A DNA stretch of 64,000 nucleotides from Candidatus Cryptobacteroides sp. (lineage in GTDB: Bacteria > Bacteroidota > Bacteroidia > Bacteroidales > UBA932). The position numbers were made by a program, and so were the translations under genes. Below are positions 31,830-44,568 of the stretch, one piece after another. Within the stretch, counting starts at the first letter, position 1; every line of letters begins with the position of its first letter. Location of the stretch: NCBI GenBank assembly GCA_045612265.1, contig JAZKYT010000018.1, positions 2,611 to 66,610 on the forward strand, in the 5' to 3' direction. The notes below the pieces were generated by a model. That model was not told where the DNA came from. It worked only from the letters and a program-made list of their open reading frames with translations, and ran no database searches.

Positions 31830-34800
31830 TTAGAAAGTAATGTTCAGGCCAAATGAATAAGTTGTAGGAGTAGGATAACGACCGTTGTCCAAACCATAAG
31901 TAAGTCCGGTAGCATCCTGTGTTGAAGCTCCCACCTCAGGATCATAACCTGTGTACTTTGTGAAAGTATAAAGGTTCTGGATGTTGGCGTAGAGACGAAG
32001 GTTATCTATCTTAGCCTTGCTTATCCATTTCTTAGGGAAGGTATATCCGAGAGCGATATTCTTTATACGGATATATGAACCATCCTCCACAAAGCGGCTG
32101 CTGATACGGTCATTGTCGTTAGGGTCTGACAATGTAGGACGTGGAGTCTTTGTATCGCTGTTAGCAACCCTGACGTTTGTGATATCATTAAACCAGAGTT
32201 CATCCTGAGCAGCCTTTTCGGCATCGATAGGAACGAGCTGAGCATGATTCGCAGTAGCAGTCTTATTCTGGTTCACCCAAGCAGATCTCATTGTACCGAT
32301 ACCACCGGAACCTCCAGAAAGAAGAGTATAGTTCATCACCTTGTTGCCATAAGAACCGTTAATGAAGATATTGAGATCGAAGTTCTTATAACGGAAAGTG
32401 TTGTTCCATCCGAATGTGAACTTAGGAAGCGGGCTACCGAGATCGGTACGGTCCTTTGTGTCAATCACGCCGTCACCTGCATCAGGAATTCCATCACCAT
32501 CTGTATCCTCAGTGAGCTGATCCTTGAACTTAAGGTCACCTACCCACACTGTGTTCGAGCGGTTGAACACGCCGTCAGCAGGGAATTTCTCTGCCTTTGG
32601 TGAATTCATGATATCCTCAAGAGACTCATAAACACCGACAACCTCATAACCATAGAAGTTATAAAGAGACTTGCCGACCTCTGAAACGCAGACAACGTCG
32701 CTCCACTGGCCATAACCTACAAGGTTGGCATTCTCAGTACCAGAGAGAGAGAGCAGCTTATTGCGGTTGATTGAAACCTGAAGATTTGAATCCCACTGGA
32801 ATTCACCTACGAACGGATGTACATCGAGAGTAATCTCAAGACCCTTGTTCTCAATGCTACCGTAGTTACCCTTTGGTGCTTCAAGCTTTGATGATCCATT
32901 ACCCTGAGTACCCATATAAGATGGGAGCTGCATAGACATGAGCATGTCATCAGATCTCTTATAATATGCATCGACAGTAAGATTGAGTCTATCCTCAAAG
33001 AATCCGAGATCGAGACCGAGGTTATACTGTTCCTGCTTTTCCCATCTGATTGCTGTGTTTGCGATGTTTGCAGGACGATATCCCATACCAAGAGCAGAAG
33101 GCATACGGCTGATTGATGATCCCCATGCATAGCCACCGATGTTCGAGTTACCTGTCTGACCCCAACCAAGACGGAGTTTACCGTTGCTGAGCCACTCGAC
33201 ATCCTTAAGGAAGGACTCGTTATTGAATCTCCACGATCCTGCAAGTGAGTGGAAGCCAGCCCAACGGTTATCAGGACCGAAGTTTGAAGATCCGTCGTAA
33301 CGGTATGTATATGTCAGATAGTATCTATTGTCATAGTTATAATTTTCACGAGTGAAGAACGAAGCCATTGATGCGCTGCCGAAACCAGCACCGATCTTAG
33401 GGTCTCCTGCTCCGAGAGCTGGATTGTGTACATCATCAGACGGAAGCTTCGTATTGAACGTACTTGCGTACTCCCAGCTTGATTCCCAGGCCTCCTGACC
33501 AACCATAGCTGTCAAGTTGTGCTTTCCCCAGGTATTTGAATAAGTCAAGTAGTTCTTGATCTGCCAGAAGAGGTTGCGGTTGTACTGGATGCTGCTCTCG
33601 TTTGTTCCGCGCACCCAGCCACCGAGATCCACCATCGGTTTGTAACGCTCACCCTTGCTGTTGCTGATGTCGAAACCGACCTCAGTATGCCAAGTAAGGT
33701 TCTTGACAGGAGTGATGTCTGCGAAGATGTTTCCATTGAGTTTCTGACGATTGAGGAGAATATCATCCATCATTGCAAGAGCAACCGGATTAGGATTGGT
33801 AAAGCCCTCGCGTGAAGTAGATGAATAATTACCGTTTACGTCATAGATAGGAATATCTGGAAGAGTTGTGAGGGAGTAGTTGATAAGACCCTGCTCAGAG
33901 TCAGCAAGTTTAAGGTCATCATTAGTGTTTGTGAAAGATACGTTAACACCCATCTTCATCCACTTCTTAACCTGAGCATCGATATTTGAGCGAACGCTGA
34001 AACGATCGAAGTTAGAACCGATGATTGTTCCTTCCTGATCCATATAAGATCCAGACACATAGTACTGTACCTTATCTGTACCACCTGCAACAGAAAGCTG
34101 ATGCTGCTGCTGAAGAGCTGTCTGGAAAATAGCGTCCTGCCAGTTTGTTCCGACACCAAGAATCGAAGGATCCGAATAAAGGAGATCAGGGTCACCGATT
34201 TCACCGATTCTTGTCATCTCATTATAGAACTCAGCATATTCACGCAAGTTCATCATATCGAGTCTGCGTGTCTGCTGTGAGAGTGCCAACATTCCATCAT
34301 AGCTGATTTTTGCATCGCCGGCCTTACCACGCTTGGTAGTAATGAGAACGACACCGTTTGCACCCTGTGCACCGTAGATCGCTGTTGCAGAAGCATCCTT
34401 GAGGATCTCCATGCTGACGATGTCGGCAGGGTTGATGGTAGAAAGTGGAGAAATTGTCGAAACCTTACCGTTTCCAAGGGCATCACCAAGACCGAATGAC
34501 GCTCCGGAATTTCCGCCACCCTGAACGATGACACCGTCAATCACATAGAGAGGCTCTGCGTTAGCATTGATAGTAGCCTGTCCACGTACACGGATTGATG
34601 ATGAAGAACCAGGAGCACCTGAAGTCTGAACAGCGGTCACACCGGCTGCACGACCCTGGAGAGTCTGGTCGAGTGATGTTACGATCGAACCCTTGAGGGA
34701 CTCTTCTGTCATAGAAACTGAAGCACCCGAGAGGTCGCTTCTCTTCATTGTACCGTAACCGACAACGACAACCTCATCGAGGAGCTGTCGGTCTTCCTGA

Positions 34801-35075
34801 AGTTTGGCGCTGTAGCTGTCCTGGCTGCCGACTACGATTTCGACATCCTTGTAGCCAATGGAAGTAATCACCAATGTAGCTCCTTGAGGAACGTTGATGC
34901 TATACTTACCATCCAAATCAGTAATGACACCATTCTGTGTGCCCTTTTCAATGACGCTGGCTCCGACTACAGGTCCCAAATCATCAGTGATTGTTCCACT
35001 GACACTCTTAGTCTGTGCCATGAGCGAGACACTCATAATGAGCAGCGTCAAGCAAGTAAATAGTTTACTTTTCAT
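31830..35075 (-). CDS. susC: SusC/RagA TonB-dependent transporter
   Basis: LDEVVVVGYG, PLYVIDG, ILKDASATAIYGAQGANGVVLITTKRG, C-terminal FGLNITF. Confidence 0.97.
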   Translation of the reverse strand: MKSKLFTCLTLLIMSVSLMAQTKSVSGTITDDLGPVVGASVIEKGTQNGVITDLDGKYSINVPQGATLVITSIGYKDVEIVVGSQDSYSAKLQEDRQLLDEVVVVGYGTMKRSDLSGASVSMTEESLKGSIVTSLDQTLQGRAAGVTAVQTSGAPGSSSSIRVRGQATINANAEPLYVIDGVIVQGGGNSGASFGLGDALGNGKVSTISPLSTINPADIVSMEILKDASATAIYGAQGANGVVLITTKRGKAGDAKISYDGMLALSQQTRRLDMMNLREYAEFYNEMTRIGEIGDPDLLYSDPSILGVGTNWQDAIFQTALQQQHQLSVAGGTDKVQYYVSGSYMDQEGTIIGSNFDRFSVRSNIDAQVKKWMKMGVNVSFTNTNDDLKLADSEQGLINYSLTTLPDIPIYDVNGNYSSTSREGFTNPNPVALAMMDDILLNRQKLNGNIFADITPVKNLTWHTEVGFDISNSKGERYKPMVDLGGWVRGTNESSIQYNRNLFWQIKNYLTYSNTWGKHNLTAMVGQEAWESSWEYASTFNTKLPSDDVHNPALGAGDPKIGAGFGSASMASFFTRENYNYDNRYYLTYTYRYDGSSNFGPDNRWAGFHSLAGSWRFNNESFLKDVEWLSNGKLRLGWGQTGNSNIGGYAWGSSISRMPSALGMGYRPANIANTAIRWEKQEQYNLGLDLGFFEDRLNLTVDAYYKRSDDMLMSMQLPSYMGTQGNGSSKLEAPKGNYGSIENKGLEITLDVHPFVGEFQWDSNLQVSINRNKLLSLSGTENANLVGYGQWSDVVCVSEVGKSLYNFYGYEVVGVYESLEDIMNSPKAEKFPADGVFNRSNTVWVGDLKFKDQLTEDTDGDGIPDAGDGVIDTKDRTDLGSPLPKFTFGWNNTFRYKNFDLNIFINGSYGNKVMNYTLLSGGSGGIGTMRSAWVNQNKTATANHAQLVPIDAEKAAQDELWFNDITNVRVANSDTKTPRPTLSDPNDNDRISSRFVEDGSYIRIKNIALGYTFPKKWISKAKIDNLRLYANIQNLYTFTKYTGYDPEVGASTQDATGLTYGLDNGRYPTPTTYSFGLNITF

Positions 35076-35131
35076 GTTACATGATTTTAGTGTGATTAAT
35101 TAAGTATAATGGCTGTTATATTTATTTCGTG

Positions 35132-37630
35132 TTAGTTATGTGCGGTTGAAGCTTGTCTGAACCAGTTTTCCACCTCCTGCGGCCAGCTCTCCTCTCTCCA
35201 CACATCGTGTCCTCTGTATGGATAGCATATCCAGCGCTTAGGAGCCTTGATCATATTATATCCGGCAAAATTAGTATGAGGAGGGCATGTCACATCCTGA
35301 AGTCCAAAGCCCATCAGCACCGGACACTGAATGCGGTCCGTAAAGTTCTTTACGTCAAAATAGCTGAGAGTATTGTATAGTTCCTCATCGCAGATCCCCT
35401 TCTGCTGAGCAGCCTCAAGAATCCAGTTGCCTGGCCATTCGACGATCTGGAAATAGTCCTTGTAATCACTGAGGAACGGGACTGAAGGAGTGATGGCATC
35501 GATGCGCGAATCGAGAGATGCCGCAACCAGTGTAATGGCTCCTCCCTGACTTCCTCCCTCAGCATATAATCTGTCCTGATCCACCTTTGGACGCGAGCAT
35601 ACGAAATCAATGGCTCTTACCGCATCTGCAAATACACCTCTATAATAGTATGTTTCCTTGGACTCAAGACCTCTTGTGCACCAGAGATTATCCTCGCCAG
35701 GTTTGCGGTTGAGACACTGGTTGCGGTTGCAGAGGATAAACTGAACTCTTTCTGGGGCATCGGATGGATTTGGGTACCAGATTTCAGCACCGTATCCCAT
35801 ATAATGAACAACGGTTTCGTAGCAGCCCTCAGCCACGGGTTCCACAAGGATACCGCAGGTTGGCTCACCACCGAAACCGGTCATATCGACTCTATATGTT
35901 CTACGCACGTCGTCAGAGTATTCTTTCAAGAGAGTAAGTCTGTATTCAGGATCTGTCGCACGAAGTTCTGTCAAGGTCTGGGCCCAGAACTCATCGAAAT
36001 CCTCCTGCTTGTCCTGAGGAGACTGAATCTTCTCGGGCTCAAAGCCGATGTTTGTTCTGGCAAGCTCTCGTCTTGTCCCATCCTGATCCACCATCTCGAG
36101 CACCGCCTCATAGAAACCTGGAACAAGTTTCAGGTCATATTCAAGTCCGGTTTCTCCTGCTGCGAGGTTAACCTTCTTCACATATTTTTTTACAGGGACC
36201 TTCATATCTGTGTTGAGGGTCATGACTACCTGCACCTTCATATCCTGACGGGAGTTGACTTTTGCCTTGAGAATCTGCGGCGCACCTTCAAAATACAGGC
36301 CACTATTTTCAAGACAGAAACGGGCAGTCGGTTTCTGAGCCTCCTGCATCTGCTCAGCCGCATTGCGGATGATTGCGATTGTCGTTTCGTCAGAAGCATA
36401 TACAGAATTCAGTCCCTGCTGCTCCTGTGCCGGATCGCCACAATAGTCATCACCTGGCTGCCAATAAATATTGGTTGCAGACTGCTCAGCGAATCCGCCC
36501 CAGCTCCAGAAATTCAATCCTGCAAACAATCCACCCTCATTTGCAGACTGTACGATTCTCTGCAGCACGTGCTCATAGTATGTGTCTCTGCAGGTTGTAG
36601 GAGTTCCTTTGGCAAACAGGAAGCTGTCACGAGGGAAACCGAACTCCTCAAGCACAACAGGCTTGCCGTGTCTTGCCGCAATCTCCAGATGAGCATCGAT
36701 ATATGCATCAGTATTGGATATAGCCTTATCGAGATTGGTTGCAAGAGTCTTTTCGCGAACCCAGCTCCAGTTGTACGGCCAGATATGGATATTCATGTAA
36801 TCGATGTCCGGACATGAGTGGATCTTTTCAAAGAGGTCGAAGTTCTGCTCGCAGCCGTGGTAGCCCTCACTTCCAGACGAAACCATATGATTAGGGTCGA
36901 TTGACTTGATCAGCGCCGCTGTTTCCCACATCCAATCCGCAAACATCTGCTGGTTCACAGGATCGTGAGAGAAACATCTTGGCTCATTGCCGATCTGCCA
37001 AGAGAAGATGGCCGGATCATCCTTGTACGGCTTTCCTGTCACCGTGTTGGTTCTTGAGACCACGTGCTTGACGTGATTTGCAAACAGCTCCTTTGCCTTG
37101 TCGCTGGTGATGAATCGTGAAACTGACTTGATATATTCCTGATATCCCACCACAGATGGAAGGACAGCTTCACCTTCGCCTGCCCACTCAAGGTACATTC
37201 CATAACCTCCCGACCATTCCCAGGAATTATTAATATAAAGTACAGCCTTCATATCTCTCTTGCCAAGCTCTGCAAGAAGATAGTCAAGACCCCAGAAAAT
37301 GGTGTCGTTATATACGCCGGGGGCCTTCTGAAGAGTCGGACATATACGCTGCTGAACGCCATCCGGACCATCACCGCCCACCAAGACGCGGAGATTGACC
37401 ATTCCATTCTCCTTAAGGAAGTCTAGTTCCTTCGCAAGACGCTCACGATCCCCCCCCTGGCCTTCACTGCCAAGGATTGCTCCATACCAGAAGTTGGTAC
37501 CTGCAAAATATGACGGATAATTATCCGAAACAAACTTTCCATCCTCAACCTTAACGAAGGAAGGGGCGGAAGTGTGACAAGAAGACAGCAATAACAAGAA
37601 TGCCATTGCCCAAAAACATAGTTTTTTCAT
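35132..37630 (-). CDS. Bifunctional GH5_7 beta-mannanase / CE7 acetylesterase fusion, lipoprotein
   Basis: N-term GTNFWYG, NSWEWSGG, WQIGNEPR, LEEFG; C-term DFDEFW, GGSQGG, LSYFD..NF, QDVTCPP, GHD. Confidence 0.88.
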   Translation of the reverse strand: MKKLCFWAMAFLLLLSSCHTSAPSFVKVEDGKFVSDNYPSYFAGTNFWYGAILGSEGQGGDRERLAKELDFLKENGMVNLRVLVGGDGPDGVQQRICPTLQKAPGVYNDTIFWGLDYLLAELGKRDMKAVLYINNSWEWSGGYGMYLEWAGEGEAVLPSVVGYQEYIKSVSRFITSDKAKELFANHVKHVVSRTNTVTGKPYKDDPAIFSWQIGNEPRCFSHDPVNQQMFADWMWETAALIKSIDPNHMVSSGSEGYHGCEQNFDLFEKIHSCPDIDYMNIHIWPYNWSWVREKTLATNLDKAISNTDAYIDAHLEIAARHGKPVVLEEFGFPRDSFLFAKGTPTTCRDTYYEHVLQRIVQSANEGGLFAGLNFWSWGGFAEQSATNIYWQPGDDYCGDPAQEQQGLNSVYASDETTIAIIRNAAEQMQEAQKPTARFCLENSGLYFEGAPQILKAKVNSRQDMKVQVVMTLNTDMKVPVKKYVKKVNLAAGETGLEYDLKLVPGFYEAVLEMVDQDGTRRELARTNIGFEPEKIQSPQDKQEDFDEFWAQTLTELRATDPEYRLTLLKEYSDDVRRTYRVDMTGFGGEPTCGILVEPVAEGCYETVVHYMGYGAEIWYPNPSDAPERVQFILCNRNQCLNRKPGEDNLWCTRGLESKETYYYRGVFADAVRAIDFVCSRPKVDQDRLYAEGGSQGGAITLVAASLDSRIDAITPSVPFLSDYKDYFQIVEWPGNWILEAAQQKGICDEELYNTLSYFDVKNFTDRIQCPVLMGFGLQDVTCPPHTNFAGYNMIKAPKRWICYPYRGHDVWREESWPQEVENWFRQASTAHN

Positions 37631-37659
37631 CTGTATAGCGCTATAATTATGTGGTATTG

Positions 37660-37667
37660 CAAAATTA
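37660..37667 (-). promoter_or_regulatory. -7 promoter (TAATTTTG) of the main PUL operon
   Basis: TAnnTTTG on minus strand about 30 nt upstream of the GH5_7-CE7 start. Confidence 0.65.
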
Positions 37668-37689
37668 CCAAATGACTATCGGCTAAACA

Positions 37690-37711
37690 AATACAATTTT
37701 ATCTATTTATA
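37690..37711. promoter_or_regulatory. Candidate AraC operator, copy 1
   Basis: AATACAATTTTATCTATTTATA; 20/22 identical to 38652-38673. Confidence 0.5.
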
Positions 37712-37718
37712 GTATAAA

Positions 37719-38606
37719 TTAAACAATAATATTATTTTTTCTGAACATCGCTCTGAATTCACGCGGGGTATAGTTGCGCTTAGCCTTGAACGTTCGATTG
37801 AAATTCGAGAGGTTGTTGAAGCCACACTCATAGCATATTTCCGAGATGTTCTTCTCGGAATCGACAAGCATCCTGGCAGCATATCCGAGACGGATATCCA
37901 CGATATATTCCGACAGCGTACGGCTCGTCCTCTGATGAAAGAAACGGCTGAACGAGACAGGACTCATACCCACAAGATCAGCCATCTGCGAGAGCGACAA
38001 AGGCTCCGCATAATGCTCATCGATATACTGCTTTACCTTCTGCACTCGCCTGCTTTCCTCGGTGCCTCCATGCCTTGCAAACGAGCTTGATGCAAGCACC
38101 CTGGCACCTTTCGAAACAGACAGTTCATACAAAATGTAAAGGAATTTTAAGAATTGCATAAATCTCTCACCTTCAGACGTTTCCAGAGCCAGTTTATCCA
38201 ACACGTGATATACTTTCATAATGGTATCCATCGGGAAAGATATGCCATATTGGGCATTGTCAAGCATCCTTCTGATTGAGGCAAACTGATTCTTTGAAAG
38301 CATCTCTCCCTCGAACAGATTCTGGGAGAACTGTATGGTGATCTCCCTGATGTCCGAGGATGCGCAGGAGCCTTGCTCCCAAACGTGCTCAAGTCCTCCG
38401 GATCCCACCAGAACCAGATCATATTCGCCGATTTCCTCGACACTGTCGCCAACAATCCTCCTTACCCCTTGTGCGTGCTCCACAAAGTTAAGTTCAAACT
38501 CCTCGTGCTTGTGGAGAGGATAGTCAAACTTTGTCTTATGACGCTCTACAATATGGAAACAATCCTTTTCTGACAGTTTGCAGATTTCCGTGAAAACTTT
38601 GCTCAT
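37719..38606 (-). CDS. AraC family transcriptional regulator (cupin + HTH)
   Basis: YPLHKHEEFELNF cupin; ISEICYECGFNNLSNFNR.FK HTH; start moved to MSKVF because a -7 box (38627-38634) overlaps the longer start. Confidence 0.93.
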   Translation of the reverse strand: MSKVFTEICKLSEKDCFHIVERHKTKFDYPLHKHEEFELNFVEHAQGVRRIVGDSVEEIGEYDLVLVGSGGLEHVWEQGSCASSDIREITIQFSQNLFEGEMLSKNQFASIRRMLDNAQYGISFPMDTIMKVYHVLDKLALETSEGERFMQFLKFLYILYELSVSKGARVLASSSFARHGGTEESRRVQKVKQYIDEHYAEPLSLSQMADLVGMSPVSFSRFFHQRTSRTLSEYIVDIRLGYAARMLVDSEKNISEICYECGFNNLSNFNRTFKAKRNYTPREFRAMFRKNNIIV

Positions 38607-38651
38607 CCGATATAAATTTAGCGACACAAAAATACTAAAAATATTAATACT

Positions 38652-38673
38652 AATACTATTTTAACTATTTATA
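38652..38673. promoter_or_regulatory. Candidate AraC operator, copy 2 (araC/epimerase divergent region)
   Basis: AATACTATTTTAACTATTTATA between -7 boxes at 38627-38634 (-) and 38716-38723 (+). Confidence 0.5.
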
Positions 38674-38742
38674 CATAAAAATCGCAAGAAAACCTTTAGA
38701 AAGGATTTATCTACTTATATTTGTGGAAAAGAGAAAAACACT

Positions 38743-39978
38743 ATGAATCACAGCCAAAAGACACCAGCTGAAATTTTCGCATCCAAGGCCCTTGCATCAC
38801 AGATGCGTAGGGAACTGACAGGAAACATACTTCCATATTGGATGGAGAAAATGACCAATCCTTCAGGAGGATTTCACGGCAGGATTGACGGCAGAGAGCA
38901 CCTCGACACACAGGCTCCTGTGGGAGGTATAATGACTGCTCGTGTGCTCTGGACCTTTGCTTCAGCATACCGTGTTCTCAGCGCCTCTACAACCACTTCT
39001 GCAGCTGATCTCGAGGGTTATCTCCAGATGGCCATGCGCGCAAAAAAGCTTCTGTTGGATTCATTTGTCGACCCTGAATTCGGCGGAACCTATTGGTCAT
39101 TGACTGCCGACTTCAAGCCCCTTGACACTAAAAAGCAGATCTATGCAATCGCTTTTACAATTTATGGACTTGCTGAACTCTATCGTGCCTGCGGAGATCT
39201 TGAAGCTCTTGAGGCTGCCATAAACCTTTTCAATTCCATCGAGGAGCATAGCTATGATCCTGTTGGCGGAGGATATTTCGAGGCGTTCACACGTTCTTGG
39301 GAACCGATCGAGGACATGCGTCTGAGCGACAAGGATGCCAATGAAAGCAAGACCATGAACACACACCTTCATGTGCTTGAGGCATATACATGCCTATACC
39401 GTGTATGGAAGGATAACCTGCTTGAGGAGAGACTCCGCAACTTGATTGAAGTCTTTGAAAATCATATACTTGGAACAGATGGTCACCTCAAGTTGTTCTT
39501 TGATGATTCATGGAAATGTGGATATGACATCGTTTCCTATGGACACGACATAGAGGCTTCCTGGCTGATCCATGAAGCAGCTCTTGTGCTGGGAGACGCG
39601 GCTGTACTTGACCGTATCGAAAAACTTGTTCCTTCTATCGTTGAAGCAGCTGCCGAAGGTTTCACTCCATCAGATGGACTTATATATGAAAAATCTTCCG
39701 AGGAAGTGGACCGCGACCGCCACTGGTGGGTACAGGCCGAAGCCGTGGTGGGATTCTTCAACCTCTGGGATCATTTCGGAGTGCAGTCCGGACTCGAAAA
39801 TGCCCTCGTTTCATGGGAGTTCATCAAATCATCCCTCATAGACTGCGAGAACGGCGAATGGTTCTGGAGCGTACGCGCAGACGGAACTGTCAACCGCGAT
39901 GACGACAAGGCCGGCTTCTGGAAATGTCCGTACCACAACGGACGTATGTGTATGGAGATCATTGAACGTACACGATAA
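38743..39978 (+). CDS. Cellobiose/mannobiose 2-epimerase (AGE family)
   Basis: ARVLWTF, KQIYA.AF.IYGL, KTMNTHLHVLEAY, SYGHDIEASWL, WWVQAE, WKCPYHNGR. Confidence 0.93.
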   Translation: MNHSQKTPAEIFASKALASQMRRELTGNILPYWMEKMTNPSGGFHGRIDGREHLDTQAPVGGIMTARVLWTFASAYRVLSASTTTSAADLEGYLQMAMRAKKLLLDSFVDPEFGGTYWSLTADFKPLDTKKQIYAIAFTIYGLAELYRACGDLEALEAAINLFNSIEEHSYDPVGGGYFEAFTRSWEPIEDMRLSDKDANESKTMNTHLHVLEAYTCLYRVWKDNLLEERLRNLIEVFENHILGTDGHLKLFFDDSWKCGYDIVSYGHDIEASWLIHEAALVLGDAAVLDRIEKLVPSIVEAAAEGFTPSDGLIYEKSSEEVDRDRHWWVQAEAVVGFFNLWDHFGVQSGLENALVSWEFIKSSLIDCENGEWFWSVRADGTVNRDDDKAGFWKCPYHNGRMCMEIIERTR

Positions 39979-40018: not shown

Positions 40019-40026
40019 TATATTTG
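40019..40026 (+). promoter_or_regulatory. -7 promoter (TATATTTG) of accessory cassette
   Basis: TAnnTTTG; predicts a transcript start near 40031 and a ~220-nt leader. Confidence 0.65.
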
Positions 40027-40030
40027 CATA

Positions 40031-40229
40031 TAGCCTTACGGCTAAAGACATATAACCATAGCGTTTGCTATTTGTCCGTTTCACGCTGAAACCTAGGAAA
40101 TTTCATTGCATGTGATCAAGAAAGGACAAGTCGTGAGCGTCTGCGTGCATTGTACGCGGGCGTGACTTGCCTCTTGATTGGTTTTCCTAGGACCACAGCG
40201 TGAGCAAGTGATGCTCGCGTTTTTTTTGT
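40031..40229 (+). ncRNA. Structured cis-regulatory leader RNA (candidate riboswitch/attenuator)
   Basis: Two small hairpins, a ~123-nt multi-stem hairpin (40081-40203) and an overlapping intrinsic terminator. Confidence 0.65.
40198..40229 (+). terminator. Leader intrinsic terminator
   Basis: GCGUGAGCA-aguga-UGCUCGCGU followed by a U-run, about 22 nt before the first ATG. Confidence 0.75.
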
Positions 40230-40251
40230 TAACCCTATAAAACCAGACGAC

Positions 40252-40854
40252 ATGAAAAAGTTTTTTGTTATGATGGCAGCAGCCACAATGATTCTTTCAG
40301 GATGCGGCGCTTCTACGCAGGTTGCATCTACTAAAAAAAGTGTAAATCCCGATGGACAGCTTTTAGAAAATAATCCTTGCATCGAATACGCAATGATGAA
40401 GCCTAAGACAAGAGCATATGGTGACGGCACGCATTTCAAGGAATCAACCGCAACTAATATTGCTGAAGCGCAGGCAAGAGGAAAATTCGCCAGAAGAATT
40501 GAGGCTGCTGTATTAAGTGCAACAGAAGAAATCGGCATCAGTCTTGAAAAATACTCAGGTGATGCAATGGGTGGATCAAGCGCTACCGATCAGTCCGCTG
40601 AAGCAAATGATATGGTAAGCAGTATTGCTGCACAGTGTATCAAAAACACTTATATCGTAAAAATATCTCGATATTACACCGAAAATCAGCAATATAAAAT
40701 TTATGTATGCCTCGAATTCGGCGGTAGCGAAGACGAAATGGCGGACCAGATCGTGCAATCGGTTGTTGATAAAATTTCTGAAGCCGATCGAGCAAAAATC
40801 GAAGCTCGCCACGATGATTTCCGCAACAGAGTATACAACAACCTTAAGGACTAA
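40252..40854 (+). CDS. Hypothetical lipoprotein (LPP20-like)
   Basis: Lipobox LSGC; RAYGDG....ATNIAEAQARGKFARRI pattern reminiscent of LPP20 folds. Confidence 0.7.
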   Translation: MKKFFVMMAAATMILSGCGASTQVASTKKSVNPDGQLLENNPCIEYAMMKPKTRAYGDGTHFKESTATNIAEAQARGKFARRIEAAVLSATEEIGISLEKYSGDAMGGSSATDQSAEANDMVSSIAAQCIKNTYIVKISRYYTENQQYKIYVCLEFGGSEDEMADQIVQSVVDKISEADRAKIEARHDDFRNRVYNNLKD

Positions 40855-40859
40855 TCCGG

Positions 40860-41681
40860 ATGAAGAAACTTGCTCTACTATTGATCTTGTGTGCAACGAC
40901 TGGCATGCAATCCTATGGAAAAGGGGAGCTTAAACCTAAATGGTGCGGAAATGTTCCTGCCGCAAACAGCAAGTTTTATTTTGTGGAAGTAACAACGGAT
41001 GCCGCATCTTCGTTGAGCGGTGCCCGCACTTATGTCTTGAAGGACTTGGCCTCTAATGTAGAGAGAACCGACAACGTAAATGTAACGGAGTGCTATGAGG
41101 ATAATTCCAGCCAACAATATAAAGGTGGGCAAGTTGACTTTAGCGGGAGCGACTCATATCAACTCAAATTGAATGTCGAGGGTTCCGCTCAACCCATATT
41201 GTCAAGAAGAATTGATGAGTATTGGGTAGGAACGCAACGAGGTAATATAGATGTGTTGGAATATTCTGCCCTTTATGCTGTTGCAAGAAAGGGAGCAAAA
41301 CCGGACTTTTCTTCTATACGCATCACCTCTTCGTATGGTGTTCACGGTCTGTGGCGTTCAATGATAGTACCCGGCTGGGGACAGATGCACAAAGGATCAT
41401 ATGCCAAAGGTGGTGTCATCCTCGGTGGAACCATTGCTCTTGCCGGCGGAATAATATTCACAGAAAGCATGAGGCAGACTTGCCTGGCTCAAATCAGTCA
41501 GACACATAGCTCGACTGTAATCAAACAACTTTATGCCAATATGAGTAATTGGGCCATTGGCAGAAATGTCTGCATTGGAGCTGCAGCAGCACTCTATGCC
41601 TATAATATAGTAGATGCCATTGTCGCACCCGGTGCCAGACGAGTGGTGGTGACACCAGGATATATGGCTGTCCGCTTTTAA
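40860..41681 (+). CDS. Secreted/membrane protein, LPP20-like N-terminus + DUF5683-like C-terminus
   Basis: Signal peptide; SMIVPGWGQ..KG, hydrophobic helices, LYAYNIVDA; terminal Phe. Confidence 0.65.
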   Translation: MKKLALLLILCATTGMQSYGKGELKPKWCGNVPAANSKFYFVEVTTDAASSLSGARTYVLKDLASNVERTDNVNVTECYEDNSSQQYKGGQVDFSGSDSYQLKLNVEGSAQPILSRRIDEYWVGTQRGNIDVLEYSALYAVARKGAKPDFSSIRITSSYGVHGLWRSMIVPGWGQMHKGSYAKGGVILGGTIALAGGIIFTESMRQTCLAQISQTHSSTVIKQLYANMSNWAIGRNVCIGAAAALYAYNIVDAIVAPGARRVVVTPGYMAVRF

Positions 41682-41685
41682 TATT

Positions 41686-41717
41686 TACCTCATGCCCTTT
41701 GATCGGGGTATGAGGTA
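41686..41717 (+). other. Intergenic stem-loop without U-tract
   Basis: UACCUCAUGCCC / GGGUAUGAGGUA 12-bp stem. Confidence 0.6.
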
Positions 41718-41738
41718 CAACTATAAAATTTATACACT

Positions 41739-44546
41739 ATGAAAAAATCCTTTATCTGCCTACTATTAACAATATTTTATATTGCATCCTGTACTCAACC
41801 GGTGGTGGAAGTATTCGGAAGTATTTCCGGATATGTAGTAGATGAAGACTCAGGAGCCGCTATTGGCGGAGCTCGAGTGACATTGACTCCGACCGGATCA
41901 TCTCAGGTAACATCCACCGATGGCGAGTTTCTTTTTGACAATCTGGACGCACAAGAATATACTTTATCGATCAAGAAAGACGGATATAAAGATCTGTCGC
42001 AGAAAGTTTCCGTTAAGGCTGGCGTAACCTCAAGCGTACAAGTGGCGATGTCACCGATACAGCCTGTGCTTAAAGTGGAGCCTGAAGTACTTGATTTCGG
42101 AGGTGAGGCAACATCACTCGCTTTAGATATTACCAACTCCGGAAAAGGAACGCTTGAGTGGACAATTGACGAAGAGATCAAGTGGATCACATGCAGTGCT
42201 GCCAGCGGAGAAACAACCGACAAAGTCGCCTCTGTCGTCGTGAAGGCATCAAGAGAAGGCATGGAGAAGGGTTCATATACCGAAACCATCGTGATTTCTT
42301 CTAATGGTGGTAGCGCCATAGTAAAAGTAAAGATGTCGGTGGGAAGTGCCATCAAACTTTCTGTAAATCCTGACGAACTGGATTTCGGAACTGCTGAGTC
42401 ACAGATTCAAGTGACAATCATCAATAACGGTGAAAAGGCCGTGCAATATACGGCATCGACAGCAAATAACTGGCTTACACTCGACAAAGCCTCGTCATCA
42501 GTCCATACCACTGATTATATCAATGCTATCGTATCACGTGAAGGACTTGATGCGGGACCATATACCTCATCAATAACACTTTCGACAGACGGCGGTGATA
42601 TCATCATTCCCGTGAAGATGACCGTGGCTCATAAGTGTGCCCCTACTGTTACAGCAGAAAGTGTGGAGGATATCACATATAACTCTGCATTTGTAAACGG
42701 AACAATTGTGGATATCGGAAGCTCCAAAATTACCAGACACGGATTCTGCTATAGTTCATCCAACAAGCAGCCTTCAGTGGATGATAATGTCGCAAATCTC
42801 GGTGATTGCTCTGCGCCAAAGGCATTCAAGGGCGTTATTACTAACCTTGGTAACATGACGACCTACTATGTCCGCGCATTTGCTGAAAATCAGGAAGGAA
42901 TAAGCTACAGCAGCACTCTGTCGTTCACAACAAGCGACCTGCCTAAATTGGCAGAGGTCGAGACCGGAGAAGTGACAGAAATTACGGCAAAGACTGCAGT
43001 GGCAACAGGTGTTATTAAGCATCTCGGCAACATGAGCACACTGACGGCACATGGTCATGTATGGAACACCACAGGCAATCCATCTCTCTCAACAGGAAAT
43101 AGTACTGATCTGGGAGAATGTTCTGAAGCAACCGTATTCACCAGTGAACTGACCGGACTTAAAGGTGGTACAACTTATTATGTCCGCGCATATGCGACCA
43201 ATGAGAAAGGTACCGCTTACGGTGAAGAGGTTACGTTCACCACAAGCGACCTGCGTAAATTGGCAGAGGTCGAGACCGGAGAAGTGACAGAAATTACGGC
43301 ACAGACTGCAGTGACAACAGGTGTAATTAAGCATCTCGGCAATGTGAGCACACTGACAGCACATGGTCATGTATGGAACACCGCAGGCAATCCATCTCTC
43401 TCATCAGGAAATAGTACTGATCTGGGAGAATGTTCTGAAGCAACCGTATTCACCAGTGAGCTGACCGGACTTGAAGGTGGTACAACTTATTATGTTCGCG
43501 CATATGCGACCAATGAGAAAGGTACCGCTTACGGTGAAGAGGTTACGTTCACCACTGAAAAGGCACCAGTAGAGCTTGGAGACATCATTATTTCCGACGT
43601 AACACGCAGTTCTGCCACTGTAACGGCAGAACTTCTGTCTGAAGCAGGACACACAATTGTGGAAAAAGGCTTCTGCTATTATAAAGACGGAACCGAGGAT
43701 TATATGTTTGCGGAAGCGGACAAGAACTTTACTGCCACATTGACCGGCCTGGAAAGCAAGACCAAATATTGGGTATCGGCTTATGTAGTAAACTCTGAAG
43801 ACAAATCTTTCTGGACAGAATATATCTATTCCTTCACAACACTTGAAGGTCCTAAAAATCCAACAAACGGACTGTATGCTTACTATACTTTTGAAAACAA
43901 CACGACAAACACCGTATCGGGTGCTCCGAATGCCTCGGGCATCAATACTTCGTATGTTGATGGAGTACAGGGTGGTATAGCGTTGCAGTTCAGCTCGTCA
44001 AAAAGCAGATTGAATATTTCCGAAGCCATTATAGATAACGGAACATTCTCAACAGCATTCTGGATCAAGGACTGCAGCGATGGACACATATTCAGTGTAA
44101 GGACTTCAGACAGCGATTATGAATATGCTTTTGTATTCAGTATTCGAGACGGAATGTTCACCTTTGTTCCTGGAACCTTCTATTACCATAAATACTATTT
44201 CAGTGATTATGGACTGACGCCTTCATTTGAGCATTCAGACCTGAACGCATCAAAATGGTATCATTTGGCATTGACTTCACAATATAATTCTGTAAGCGGA
44301 AAACTCTCTGTTAAATTCTATGTAGATGGAGAGCCTGTTGATGCCATCACATGCAGCACATATGGTGGACGTGATATCAATAAGGGAGTGAAACTCTTGT
44401 TTGGAGGAACTCTTACAACACAGAATTACATGTTTGACATGTCATTAAACTGGATGAACATGTCACTTGACAACGTGAGAATATACAAAAACAAGGTTCT
44501 TTCTGATGATGAAGTTCAGCAGATCTACGAATACGAGAAACAATGA
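41739..44546 (+). CDS. Large surface lipoprotein: carboxypeptidase-regulatory-like + 2 BACON + 4 FN3-like + LamG/ConA domain
   Basis: Lipobox IASC; GSISGYVVD..SG..I.GARV; LDFG...W; TTYYVRAYA.N..G..YG repeats; GLYAYYTFE, WYHLALT, LDNVRIY. Confidence 0.8.
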   Translation: MKKSFICLLLTIFYIASCTQPVVEVFGSISGYVVDEDSGAAIGGARVTLTPTGSSQVTSTDGEFLFDNLDAQEYTLSIKKDGYKDLSQKVSVKAGVTSSVQVAMSPIQPVLKVEPEVLDFGGEATSLALDITNSGKGTLEWTIDEEIKWITCSAASGETTDKVASVVVKASREGMEKGSYTETIVISSNGGSAIVKVKMSVGSAIKLSVNPDELDFGTAESQIQVTIINNGEKAVQYTASTANNWLTLDKASSSVHTTDYINAIVSREGLDAGPYTSSITLSTDGGDIIIPVKMTVAHKCAPTVTAESVEDITYNSAFVNGTIVDIGSSKITRHGFCYSSSNKQPSVDDNVANLGDCSAPKAFKGVITNLGNMTTYYVRAFAENQEGISYSSTLSFTTSDLPKLAEVETGEVTEITAKTAVATGVIKHLGNMSTLTAHGHVWNTTGNPSLSTGNSTDLGECSEATVFTSELTGLKGGTTYYVRAYATNEKGTAYGEEVTFTTSDLRKLAEVETGEVTEITAQTAVTTGVIKHLGNVSTLTAHGHVWNTAGNPSLSSGNSTDLGECSEATVFTSELTGLEGGTTYYVRAYATNEKGTAYGEEVTFTTEKAPVELGDIIISDVTRSSATVTAELLSEAGHTIVEKGFCYYKDGTEDYMFAEADKNFTATLTGLESKTKYWVSAYVVNSEDKSFWTEYIYSFTTLEGPKNPTNGLYAYYTFENNTTNTVSGAPNASGINTSYVDGVQGGIALQFSSSKSRLNISEAIIDNGTFSTAFWIKDCSDGHIFSVRTSDSDYEYAFVFSIRDGMFTFVPGTFYYHKYYFSDYGLTPSFEHSDLNASKWYHLALTSQYNSVSGKLSVKFYVDGEPVDAITCSTYGGRDINKGVKLLFGGTLTTQNYMFDMSLNWMNMSLDNVRIYKNKVLSDDEVQQIYEYEKQ
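42923..43546 (+). repeat. Tandem 312-bp duplication (FN3-like domain)
   Basis: 42923-43234 vs 43235-43546; 13 mismatches counted by eye (~96% identity). Confidence 0.92.
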
Positions 44547-44568
44547 TGCACATTTAGTTCCAATAAAC

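What the first reader, a model, noticed from the sequence alone, without database searches (positions are those of the whole stretch)
40031..40229. Candidate undescribed riboswitch/attenuator with three mutually exclusive folds
Seen: directly after a TAnnTTTG promoter come hairpins UAGCC-uuac-GGCUA (40031-44) and AUAGC-guuu-GCUAU (40058-71). A long hairpin follows: UCACGCUG 40081-88 / CAGCGUGA 40196-203; CCUAGGAAA 40092-100 / UUUCCUAGG 40183-91; AUCAAGA / UCUUGAU; CAAGUC / GACUUG; apical CGUCUGCGUGC / GUACGCGGGCG with G-U pairs. Its 3' strand overlaps the 5' arm of an intrinsic terminator (40198-40229), so it acts as an antiterminator. An earlier alternative fold (UUGUCC 40072-77 / GGACAA 40124-29; UCAC / GUGA; UGAAA 40087-91 / UUUCA 40101-05) would sequester the antiterminator 5' strand. 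G-U pairs fit the + strand, and no leader peptide is evident. Inference: a ligand-, protein- or antisense-controlled transcription switch. I do not recognise it as a known Rfam family.
Basis: partly seen in the sequence, partly recalled or inferred. Interest (0 to 1): 0.85.

Follow-up and report, generated by a model that had tools for sequence, protein, structure and literature searches.

The report
Address-coded leader RNA switch in Bacteroidota
This stretch is one copy of an uncatalogued, phylum-wide leader in front of restriction-modification and surface-protein genes of Bacteroidota; three short segments differ from copy to copy yet always match a partner segment, and it likely works like the phage P1/P4 immunity RNAs, with a piece cut from its own terminated transcript predicted to shut off only that copy.

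Summary
In detail: every helix is at the stated coordinates (z -5.8), and Rfam has no match. It is one member of a large uncatalogued family, found in 45/151 Bacteroidales and 14/151 phylum genomes searched, with up to 15 copies per genome. Covariation in 100 homologues supports two folds: two hairpins (40061-140, 40154-220) with complementary loops, or one long antiterminator hairpin; plus an intrinsic terminator. Three segments (c, a, b) differ between copies but keep their cis partners. All 55 parsed paralogues in seven genomes had unique triples, which diverge faster than synonymous sites of near-identical downstream genes. Loop sequences and spacing resemble phage C4/CI RNAs, but the Rfam C4 model, cloverleaf and phage context are not met. 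First genes were methyltransferase/defence (70/123) or exported proteins (35/123; biased sample). Best reading (0.55): a C4/CI-like self-antisense attenuator, not a metabolite riboswitch. Trans action, processing and termination are untested. The scan apparently met this family before in another genome (e1-9846657), which gave me the C4/CI lead.

The parts
40019..40026 (+). Bacteroidota -7 promoter element TAnnTTTG (consensus recalled); start of transcription inferred near 40031
   Evidence: motif within 130 nt upstream in 154/205 distinct members vs 10 for the reversed motif and 26 on the opposite strand
40031..40044 (+). 5' hairpin P1, sequence variable between members
   Evidence: hairpin of -3 kcal/mol or better in 89/150 leaders
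40058..40077 (+). Conserved framework: local hairpin P2 (40058-71) whose 5' strand later pairs with 40134-140 (Px), then the P3 5' strand (40072-77)
   Evidence: Px 97.8% and P3 97.7% of cells paired in 100 members; pair 63-138 paired in 100/100
40081..40088 (+). Address segment c; pairs with c' (40196-203) as antiterminator
   Evidence: cognate -7.6 vs non-cognate -3.3 kcal/mol; differs between paralogues
40087..40105 (+). Hairpin P5 whose loop (40092-100) is address segment a, equivalent to the C4 a1 / P4 seqA target loop; near-invariant U at 40094
   Evidence: P5 94.7% paired; loop complementary to a' in 110/115 members; loop repertoire shared with C4
40106..40122 (+). Address segment b (b1-like); pairs with b' (40171-179)
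   Evidence: cognate -9.5 vs non-cognate -2.7 kcal/mol
40124..40148 (+). Switch strand: pairs upstream (P3, Px) in fold A or downstream (P6a 127-132/164-169, P6b 138-148/152-162) in fold B
   Evidence: position 127 covaries with both 74 and 169
40152..40227 (+). Second hairpin H2, the predicted antisense RNA: base helix 154-163/211-220, helix 165-170/204-209, apex P7 180-183/191-194; displays b' (171-179), a' (183-191) and c' (196-203)
   Evidence: this stretch alone folds into H2 at -33.4 kcal/mol; 157-217, 169-205 and 183-192 covary; release as a separate RNA is inferred, not shown
40198..40227 (+). Intrinsic terminator 40198-205/40213-220 plus U tract
   Evidence: 7 of 8 pairs with changes on both sides in 34 members
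40252..40854 (+). First controlled gene: 200-aa predicted lipoprotein (signal peptide with LSGC lipobox), no Pfam or NCBIfam family
40860..44546 (+). Rest of the likely operon: 273-aa DUF5683 protein (40860-41681) and 935-aa CarboxypepD_reg/BACON/fn3 surface protein (41739-44546)
   Evidence: co-transcription inferred from orientation and short gaps

Best explanation
It is a promoter-linked leader with two covarying folds and a terminator, and it likely works as a self-antisense transcription attenuator of the P1 C4 / P4 CI type, in which a hairpin RNA predicted to be cut from terminated transcripts would bind new transcripts of the same copy and make them terminate. Shown: helices, covariation, copy-specific segments c/a/b with cis partners c'/a'/b', gene context. 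Inferred step 1: with no antisense RNA present, the nascent leader passes from P2 through P3+Px into the long hairpin, c pairs with c' and the operon is read through (equilibrium per length in this copy). Inferred step 2: terminated RNA holds H2, which displays b', a' and c' unpaired; a nuclease would free it from the 40141-153 linker. Inferred step 3: free H2 would kiss the a loop of a nascent leader and pair with b and c; c' and the 3' strand then fold into the local terminator or into H2, both ending at the U tract. The expected output is a burst on arrival in a new cell and then feedback damping, insulated between copies by the address triple. In restriction-modification copies a third complement after the terminator would also mask the start region.
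For: Covariation: fold A plus loop-loop pairs 92.8% paired, 32/41 pairs with double changes, 0/500 shuffles; fold B 92.7%, 16/24. The top de novo MI pairs are the loop-loop pairs and both loop-closing stems. 110/115 members have 6 or more Watson-Crick loop pairs, vs 20.6% for non-cognate loops. In seven multicopy genomes 55/55 parsed copies have unique c/a/b triples and their own target is the best partner (cognate -29.5 to -34.3 vs paralogue -10.2 to -13.8 kcal/mol). L400/L401 are 97% identical downstream but 39% in the address segments. In 61 pairs with 85% or more identical first genes, address identity is 0.45 vs 0.60 at four-fold sites, lower in 47/61. C4 target loops from 68 phage RNAs share cores with this family (7 of 11; 6 of 11 in a first register), and the three commonest classes are the same by my reading of the counts. 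Blocking c+a+b in silico raises members with a helix abutting the U tract from 65 to 93 of 100 (control block 70); this copy goes from 0.00 to 0.97. One genome keeps a lone c+a+b target right before a start codon 10 kb downstream. The post-terminator complement is in 63/70 RM-type vs 3/36 exported-type loci. P4 CI and C4 mechanisms: passages of PMC4825925 and PMC5320573.
Against: No transcript end, processed RNA or trans effect was observed; RNA data are contigs only, with one 229-nt metatranscriptome contig across the terminator at depth 2.9. The Rfam C4 model does not match and my model does not match the P1/P4 immunity regions. In this copy the released terminated RNA would favour fold B, which hides a', b' and c', so a processing step is required, and no GGW RNase P motif sits at the H2 base. 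The terminator already wins in 60/100 homologues without any block. Lone targets are rare: 1 of 9 long loci, none in G000, none among 6 extra pattern hits. Some paralogues share addresses: L429/L430 are near-identical (L430 was dropped before the count), three G353 copies share the a loop, and so do L090/L106. The overlap with C4 loops is weak if purines are forced (p 0.005-0.07). Tree-aware pair tests were underpowered. Downstream flanks may not be neutral, and the pairs are not independent.
Confidence: 0.55

Rival explanations
1. A cis-only kinetic attenuator: the race between loop kissing and strand exchange into fold B and completion of the terminator sets read-through, tuned by polymerase speed, pausing, temperature, Mg2+ or RNA chaperones; the address segments simply drift because each has one partner.
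For: All partners lie in cis; an ordered folding path ends in the antiterminator; antiterminator and terminator differ by only 3.6 kcal/mol here; lone targets are rare.
Against: Address segments diverge faster than unpaired flanks and synonymous sites, while single-partner stems P5 and P7 stay conserved. Conserved H2 helices are not needed for a cis race. The loop repertoire is shared with trans-acting C4 RNAs.
Confidence: 0.22
2. A riboswitch or protein-bound leader: a metabolite or global RNA-binding protein stabilises fold A (or a kissing four-way junction) and so sets termination.
For: Phylum-wide conserved framework; a conserved folding intermediate (Px+P3); terminator/antiterminator platform.
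Against: Nearly all bases conserved at 95% or more are in helices; the loops are hypervariable; first genes fall into 59 unrelated clusters with no common pathway; no shared upstream regulator among 75 upstream proteins scanned.
Confidence: 0.12
3. The released RNA mainly acts on other molecules (incoming elements with the same address, or distant targets), as an exclusion or regulon RNA, and attenuation is secondary.
For: Lone target in G019; copies on plasmids; chromosomal C4-like sRNAs with variable a' loops reported in A. baumannii (PMC5320573 passages).
Against: Every address matches its own upstream copy best (55/55); no second target in G000; no match in viral contigs or phages.
Confidence: 0.08
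4. A MITE, REP-like repeat or DNA-level palindrome rather than a regulatory RNA.
For: Long inverted repeat; multicopy in some genomes; unrelated upstream neighbours.
Against: Single copy in G000; fixed promoter-leader-terminator-gene orientation; G-U pairs kept on the + strand, including strain variants C40148T and A40154G; mutually exclusive helices both covary.
Confidence: 0.03

Closest known systems
C4 antisense RNA of phages P1/P7 (Rfam RF01695, targets RF03163) and CI RNA of satellite phage P4 with seqA/seqC
   Same: Target hairpin loop plus a second target 8-13 nt downstream, followed in the same transcript by b'-GGY-a' complements; overlapping loop repertoire; variable loops as specificity code; second target near the start codon in the RM-type copies; control by termination (PMC4825925 passages).
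   Different: No model match either way; one irregular hairpin instead of the three-stem cloverleaf; a third address segment (c/c'); terminator lies after the antisense part, not between target and antisense part, and has a cis antiterminator; mostly chromosomal, before RM and exported-protein genes rather than icd/ant/kil; Bacteroidota rather than Proteobacteria and their phages (PMC2864571 table).
IsrK of Gifsy-1 (RF01394) and the chromosomal C4-like Group 1 sRNAs of Acinetobacter baumannii
   Same: Leader that is both terminated sRNA and mRNA 5' end (PMC4825925); multicopy C4-like RNAs with variable a' loops in a host genome (PMC5320573).
   Different: Those match C4-type models; this family does not, and it has its own framework and gene context.
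Antisense-controlled attenuators of plasmids pT181/pIP501 and CopA/CopT or RNAI/RNAII kissing systems (recalled, not read)
   Same: Loop-loop kissing with a U-turn-like loop, helix propagation, termination as outcome, loop variants as specificity groups.
   Different: Those antisense RNAs come from the opposite strand; here an opposite-strand promoter motif was seen in only 15/205 members and the complement is in the same transcript.
FopS sRNA family of Bacteroides
   Same: Multicopy Bacteroidota RNA ending in an intrinsic terminator.
   Different: FopS is a single-stranded seed plus terminator with a shared seed, deposited in Rfam (PMC11697453 passages); no Rfam match here and a different anatomy.

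Membership tests
C4 / P4 CI antisense RNA | Match to Rfam C4, c4-a1b1 or isrK models | tested here: not met
   No hit in the window, 20 homologue loci, L009 alone or G000; the same library finds P1 and P4
C4 / P4 CI antisense RNA | Three-stem cloverleaf with tetraloop and b' in a hairpin loop | tested here: not met
   H2 is one irregular hairpin with a' at the apex and b' in an internal loop
C4 / P4 CI antisense RNA | Variable a' and b' complementary to upstream a1/b1 in the same transcript | tested here: met
   110/115 for a; b:b' -9.5 vs -2.7 kcal/mol; 55/55 cognate best
C4 / P4 CI antisense RNA | Target loop repertoire of C4 type | tested here: met
   7 of 11 C4 five-base cores among 17 of ours (6 of 11 among 20); p 4e-7 to 0.07 depending on the null and register
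C4 / P4 CI antisense RNA | Second target (a2/b2, seqC) beside the start codon | tested here: inconclusive
   Present in 63/70 RM-type loci, 3/36 exported-type loci, absent in this copy (z -1.6); one lone target in G019
C4 / P4 CI antisense RNA | Terminator between upstream target and antisense part | tested here: not met
   Present in P4 and the IMG/VR C4 loci shown; here the only terminator follows the antisense part
C4 / P4 CI antisense RNA | Phage immunity context (icd/kil/anti-repressor) | tested here: not met
   No match in viral contigs or phages; first genes are RM/defence or exported proteins
C4 / P4 CI antisense RNA | Processing (RNase P) to a ~77-nt RNA that acts in trans | not testable with these tools
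   Only contigs available; no GGW motif at the base of H2 in this copy
Metabolite riboswitch | Conserved unpaired ligand pocket and metabolically coherent genes | tested here: not met
   Nearly all conserved bases lie in helices and the loops are hypervariable; 59 gene clusters among 123 first genes
Metabolite riboswitch | Expression platform with terminator and antiterminator | tested here: met
FopS / GibS sRNAs | Single-stranded shared seed plus terminator; Rfam model | tested here: not met
MITE / REP element | Many near-identical dispersed copies, no strand polarity | tested here: not met
   One copy in G000; promoter-to-gene polarity; G-U pairs on the + strand; target-site duplications not tested

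The most novel reading that the evidence does not exclude
Because terminated transcripts would make the RNA that causes more termination, while read-through transcripts hide it, each copy could be a bistable, heritable ON/OFF switch. The three-segment address would let up to 15 loci per genome flip independently: RNA-only phase variation of restriction-modification and surface-protein operons across Bacteroidota, descended from or convergent with phage C4/CI immunity RNAs.
Probability: 0.22. Interest if true: 0.93.

Novelty: new variant of a known kind. Interest (0 to 1): 0.78.

Why it matters
About three in ten Bacteroidales genomes searched carry this leader, mostly before defence and surface genes, the two classes these bacteria are known to phase-vary by DNA inversion (abstract of PMC7641763). 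If it acts as inferred, it explains how newly acquired restriction-modification and surface cassettes control their own timing and dose without a regulator protein. It would extend C4/CI-type control to a new phylum and to host genes, and supply a natural set of mutually orthogonal RNA switches for Bacteroidota engineering. The key prediction, address-specific repression in trans, is a simple reporter test.

Tried and rejected
Rfam scans found nothing. My model R1 did not score the P1/P4 immunity regions. No copies in viral contigs by two patterns, no relative of the first gene's protein there, and none in phages; the window sequence had no real plasmid hit, nor did L059. FopS was rejected. 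A resemblance between hairpin P2 and the P4 seqC region was chance (1 of 106 C4 loci). No shared upstream regulator (75 of 121 upstream ORFs scanned). No conserved opposite-strand promoter (15/205). Leader peptide: the two AUGs in this leader (40110, a start-stop; 40211, 9 codons) lie in variable or terminator sequence; conservation was judged from alignments, not counted. Lone targets: none in G000, 1 of 9 long loci; of 6 extra pattern hits one was a missed full element and five looked like chance. Tree-aware covariation tests had 2-5 supported pairs each in the part of the output shown and could not reach significance. Read laying gave contigs only, so no ends, strand or level. The protein Atlas gave no answer. 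Literature: ten searches showed no description. The alignment files of Fremin and Bhatt 2021 (PMC8040213) could not be read, so a fragment of this family may be among their candidates; the rows shown from their table did not point to it. PMC11109978 has no mention of Bacteroid*, Flavobacter*, Prevotella, restriction, c4 antisense or kissing in its main text.

Full report
Observation. The 199-nt leader folds at -76.9 kcal/mol on the + strand (z -5.78, 0/200 shuffles) and -64.2 on the - strand. Rfam 15 gives nothing above noise. The leader lies between an epimerase gene and a three-gene unit starting at 40252: a predicted lipoprotein with no family, a DUF5683 protein and a BACON/fn3 surface protein. 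It is single-copy in this 85.7% complete genome.

It is a family. BLAST found it in 43 of 401 genomes of the genus. A covariance model from 34 members found it in 47/151 further-filtered genus genomes, 45/151 order genomes in 43 of 142 genera with up to 15 copies, and 14/151 phylum genomes, two outside the class; these counts include G000. Named carriers are plasmids of Chryseobacterium and Rhizosphaericola. It was not found in viral contigs or phages. TAnnTTTG lies within 130 nt upstream in 154/205 distinct members, against 10 and 26 for two controls.

Structure. Fold A is two long hairpins, H1 (40061-140) and H2 (40154-220), with complementary apical loops: 92.8% of cells paired, 32 of 41 pairs with double changes, 0/500 shuffles, slid controls 33-49%. 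Position 40127 covaries with both 40074 and 40169. Without alignment, 110 of 115 distinct members have six or more Watson-Crick loop pairs, against 20.6% for non-cognate loops; eight members were left out as short or unparsed. A strain in run X6 carries C40148T and A40154G, both keeping G-U pairs. These counts are of sequences, not events; tree-aware tests were underpowered.

Folding. Equilibrium folding by length in this copy runs P2, P3+Px, P6b, P6a, loop-loop, antiterminator; the terminator fold is 3.6 kcal/mol less stable. Across homologues the local terminator wins at full length in 60/100, so read-through there would need a kinetic trap. Forcing c, a and b unpaired, as a bound RNA would, raises members with a helix abutting the U tract from 65 to 93 of 100 (control 70), and this copy from 0.00 to 0.97. 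The stretch 40152-227 alone folds into H2. That H2 can itself terminate is inference from recalled work on hairpin mimics.

Address code. In multicopy genomes the framework is nearly uniform while three segments change and keep their partners: c/c', a/a' and b/b'. Of 60 copies fetched from seven genomes, 2 were dropped (one truncated, one near-duplicate with the same address) and 3 did not parse. All 55 parsed copies have unique triples and pair best with their own target. Mean identity is about 0.50 in c, b' and c', 0.67 in a and 0.76-0.85 in the framework; L400/L401 are 97% identical downstream but 39% in the address segments, near the shuffled level of 0.29-0.36. Among 61 pairs with first genes at least 85% identical, address identity is 0.45 against 0.60 at four-fold sites, lower in 47; the pairs are not independent. 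Counter-examples exist: L429/L430, three G353 copies and L090/L106 share the a loop. Faster-than-neutral change points to selection for copy identity, which a purely cis switch does not need.

Genes. Of 147 distinct members, 123 had a readable first gene, in 59 clusters. I classed 70 as DNA methyltransferase, RM or defence helicase (15 clusters; NCBIfam and Pfam hits on representatives; the largest cluster is linked by BLAST to members with hits, and one five-member cluster was assigned from recalled motifs), 35 as lipoprotein or exported (signal-sequence pattern and by eye) and 18 as other. The sample leans towards RM because the pattern came from that subtype; in multicopy genomes most first genes look exported by eye. 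RM-type copies carry a further complement between terminator and start codon (63/70, against 3/36 exported-type, this copy lacking it). Upstream neighbours are unrelated housekeeping or defence-island genes.

Comparison. I tested the lead. Rfam finds C4, c4-a1b1 and isrK in P1 and P4 but not here, and my model does not score those regions. Yet 68 distinct phage C4 RNAs use target loops that overlap ours: 7 of 11 cores, 6 of 11 in a first register, p from 4e-7 to 0.07 depending on the null; by my reading of the counts the three commonest classes are the same. The spacing of a and b, and of b' and a', also agrees. Passages of PMC4825925 state that P4 CI is processed from the primary transcript and causes termination by pairing with seqA and seqC; passages of PMC5320573 give the C4 cloverleaf, RNase P processing and loop-based specificity. 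So it likely works like C4/CI but is not a member: no cloverleaf, a third address, terminator placed after the antisense part, host genes. One genome keeps a lone c+a+b target just before a start codon 10 kb downstream, a hint of trans action seen in only 1 of 9 long loci.

Expression. Only contigs were available. One 229-nt contig from a gut metatranscriptome spans 40137-40365 across the terminator at depth 2.9; DNA in that library is not excluded, so this is weak.

Literature seen: passages and outline of PMC11697453 (FopS, different); passages of PMC2864571, PMC4825925 and PMC5320573; abstract and outline of PMC7641763; term search of PMC11109978 (no occurrences); part of the supplements of PMC8040213, whose alignment archives could not be read and may bear on novelty. 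Ten searches showed no description. The TAnnTTTG consensus, U-turn loops and plasmid antisense attenuators are recalled.

Verdict. A real, widespread, uncatalogued leader RNA. Attenuator anatomy is well supported; the trans-acting self-antisense mechanism is my best inference (0.55), with a cis kinetic switch (0.22) and a ligand- or protein-controlled switch (0.12) as rivals. New variant of a known kind; interest 0.78.

Noticed in passing
L352:10062-10133 (G019:C11): A lone copy of the target (c, a hairpin and b kept, spacer diverged) fills the gap before a lipoprotein start codon 10 kb downstream of a full leader with the matching address.
   Followed up: partly
L344:877-1226: Two leaders in tandem, the second degenerate, before a methyltransferase gene.
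   Followed up: no
L395-L408 (G632): Fourteen of 15 copies in one 2-Mb genome; four precede paralogous exported proteins with a shared N-terminus, each with a different address.
   Followed up: partly
L089/L120 and L110/L093: Otherwise near-identical cassettes differ mainly in the b/b' segment, as if it were swapped as a block; the same leader type also occurs before different genes (L038, L311).
   Followed up: partly
L007, L068, L076, L136, L328, L339: Truncated or internally deleted leaders; L069 and L314 have mismatched a and a' segments and may be switching address.
   Followed up: no
L048, L060, L341, L342: Long variants with 40-70-nt insertions in the middle hairpin; in L048 and L060 the Px helix extends to 9-12 pairs.
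   Followed up: no
L050, L056, L059: In non-Bacteroidales Bacteroidia the leader precedes SusC/RagA-type genes after a ~230-270-nt gap.
   Followed up: no
L092, L099, L103: Three copies sit in records titled as Bacillota MAGs; misbinning or transfer was not resolved.
   Followed up: no
window 31830-39978: Upstream lies a mannan-type utilisation cluster: SusC-like gene, glycoside hydrolase/esterase-like protein (by eye), AraC regulator and GlcNAc/cellobiose 2-epimerase; unrelated to the leader.
   Followed up: no
window 44555-44556: Run X6 shows a 42-base insertion just after the end of the 935-aa gene.
   Followed up: no
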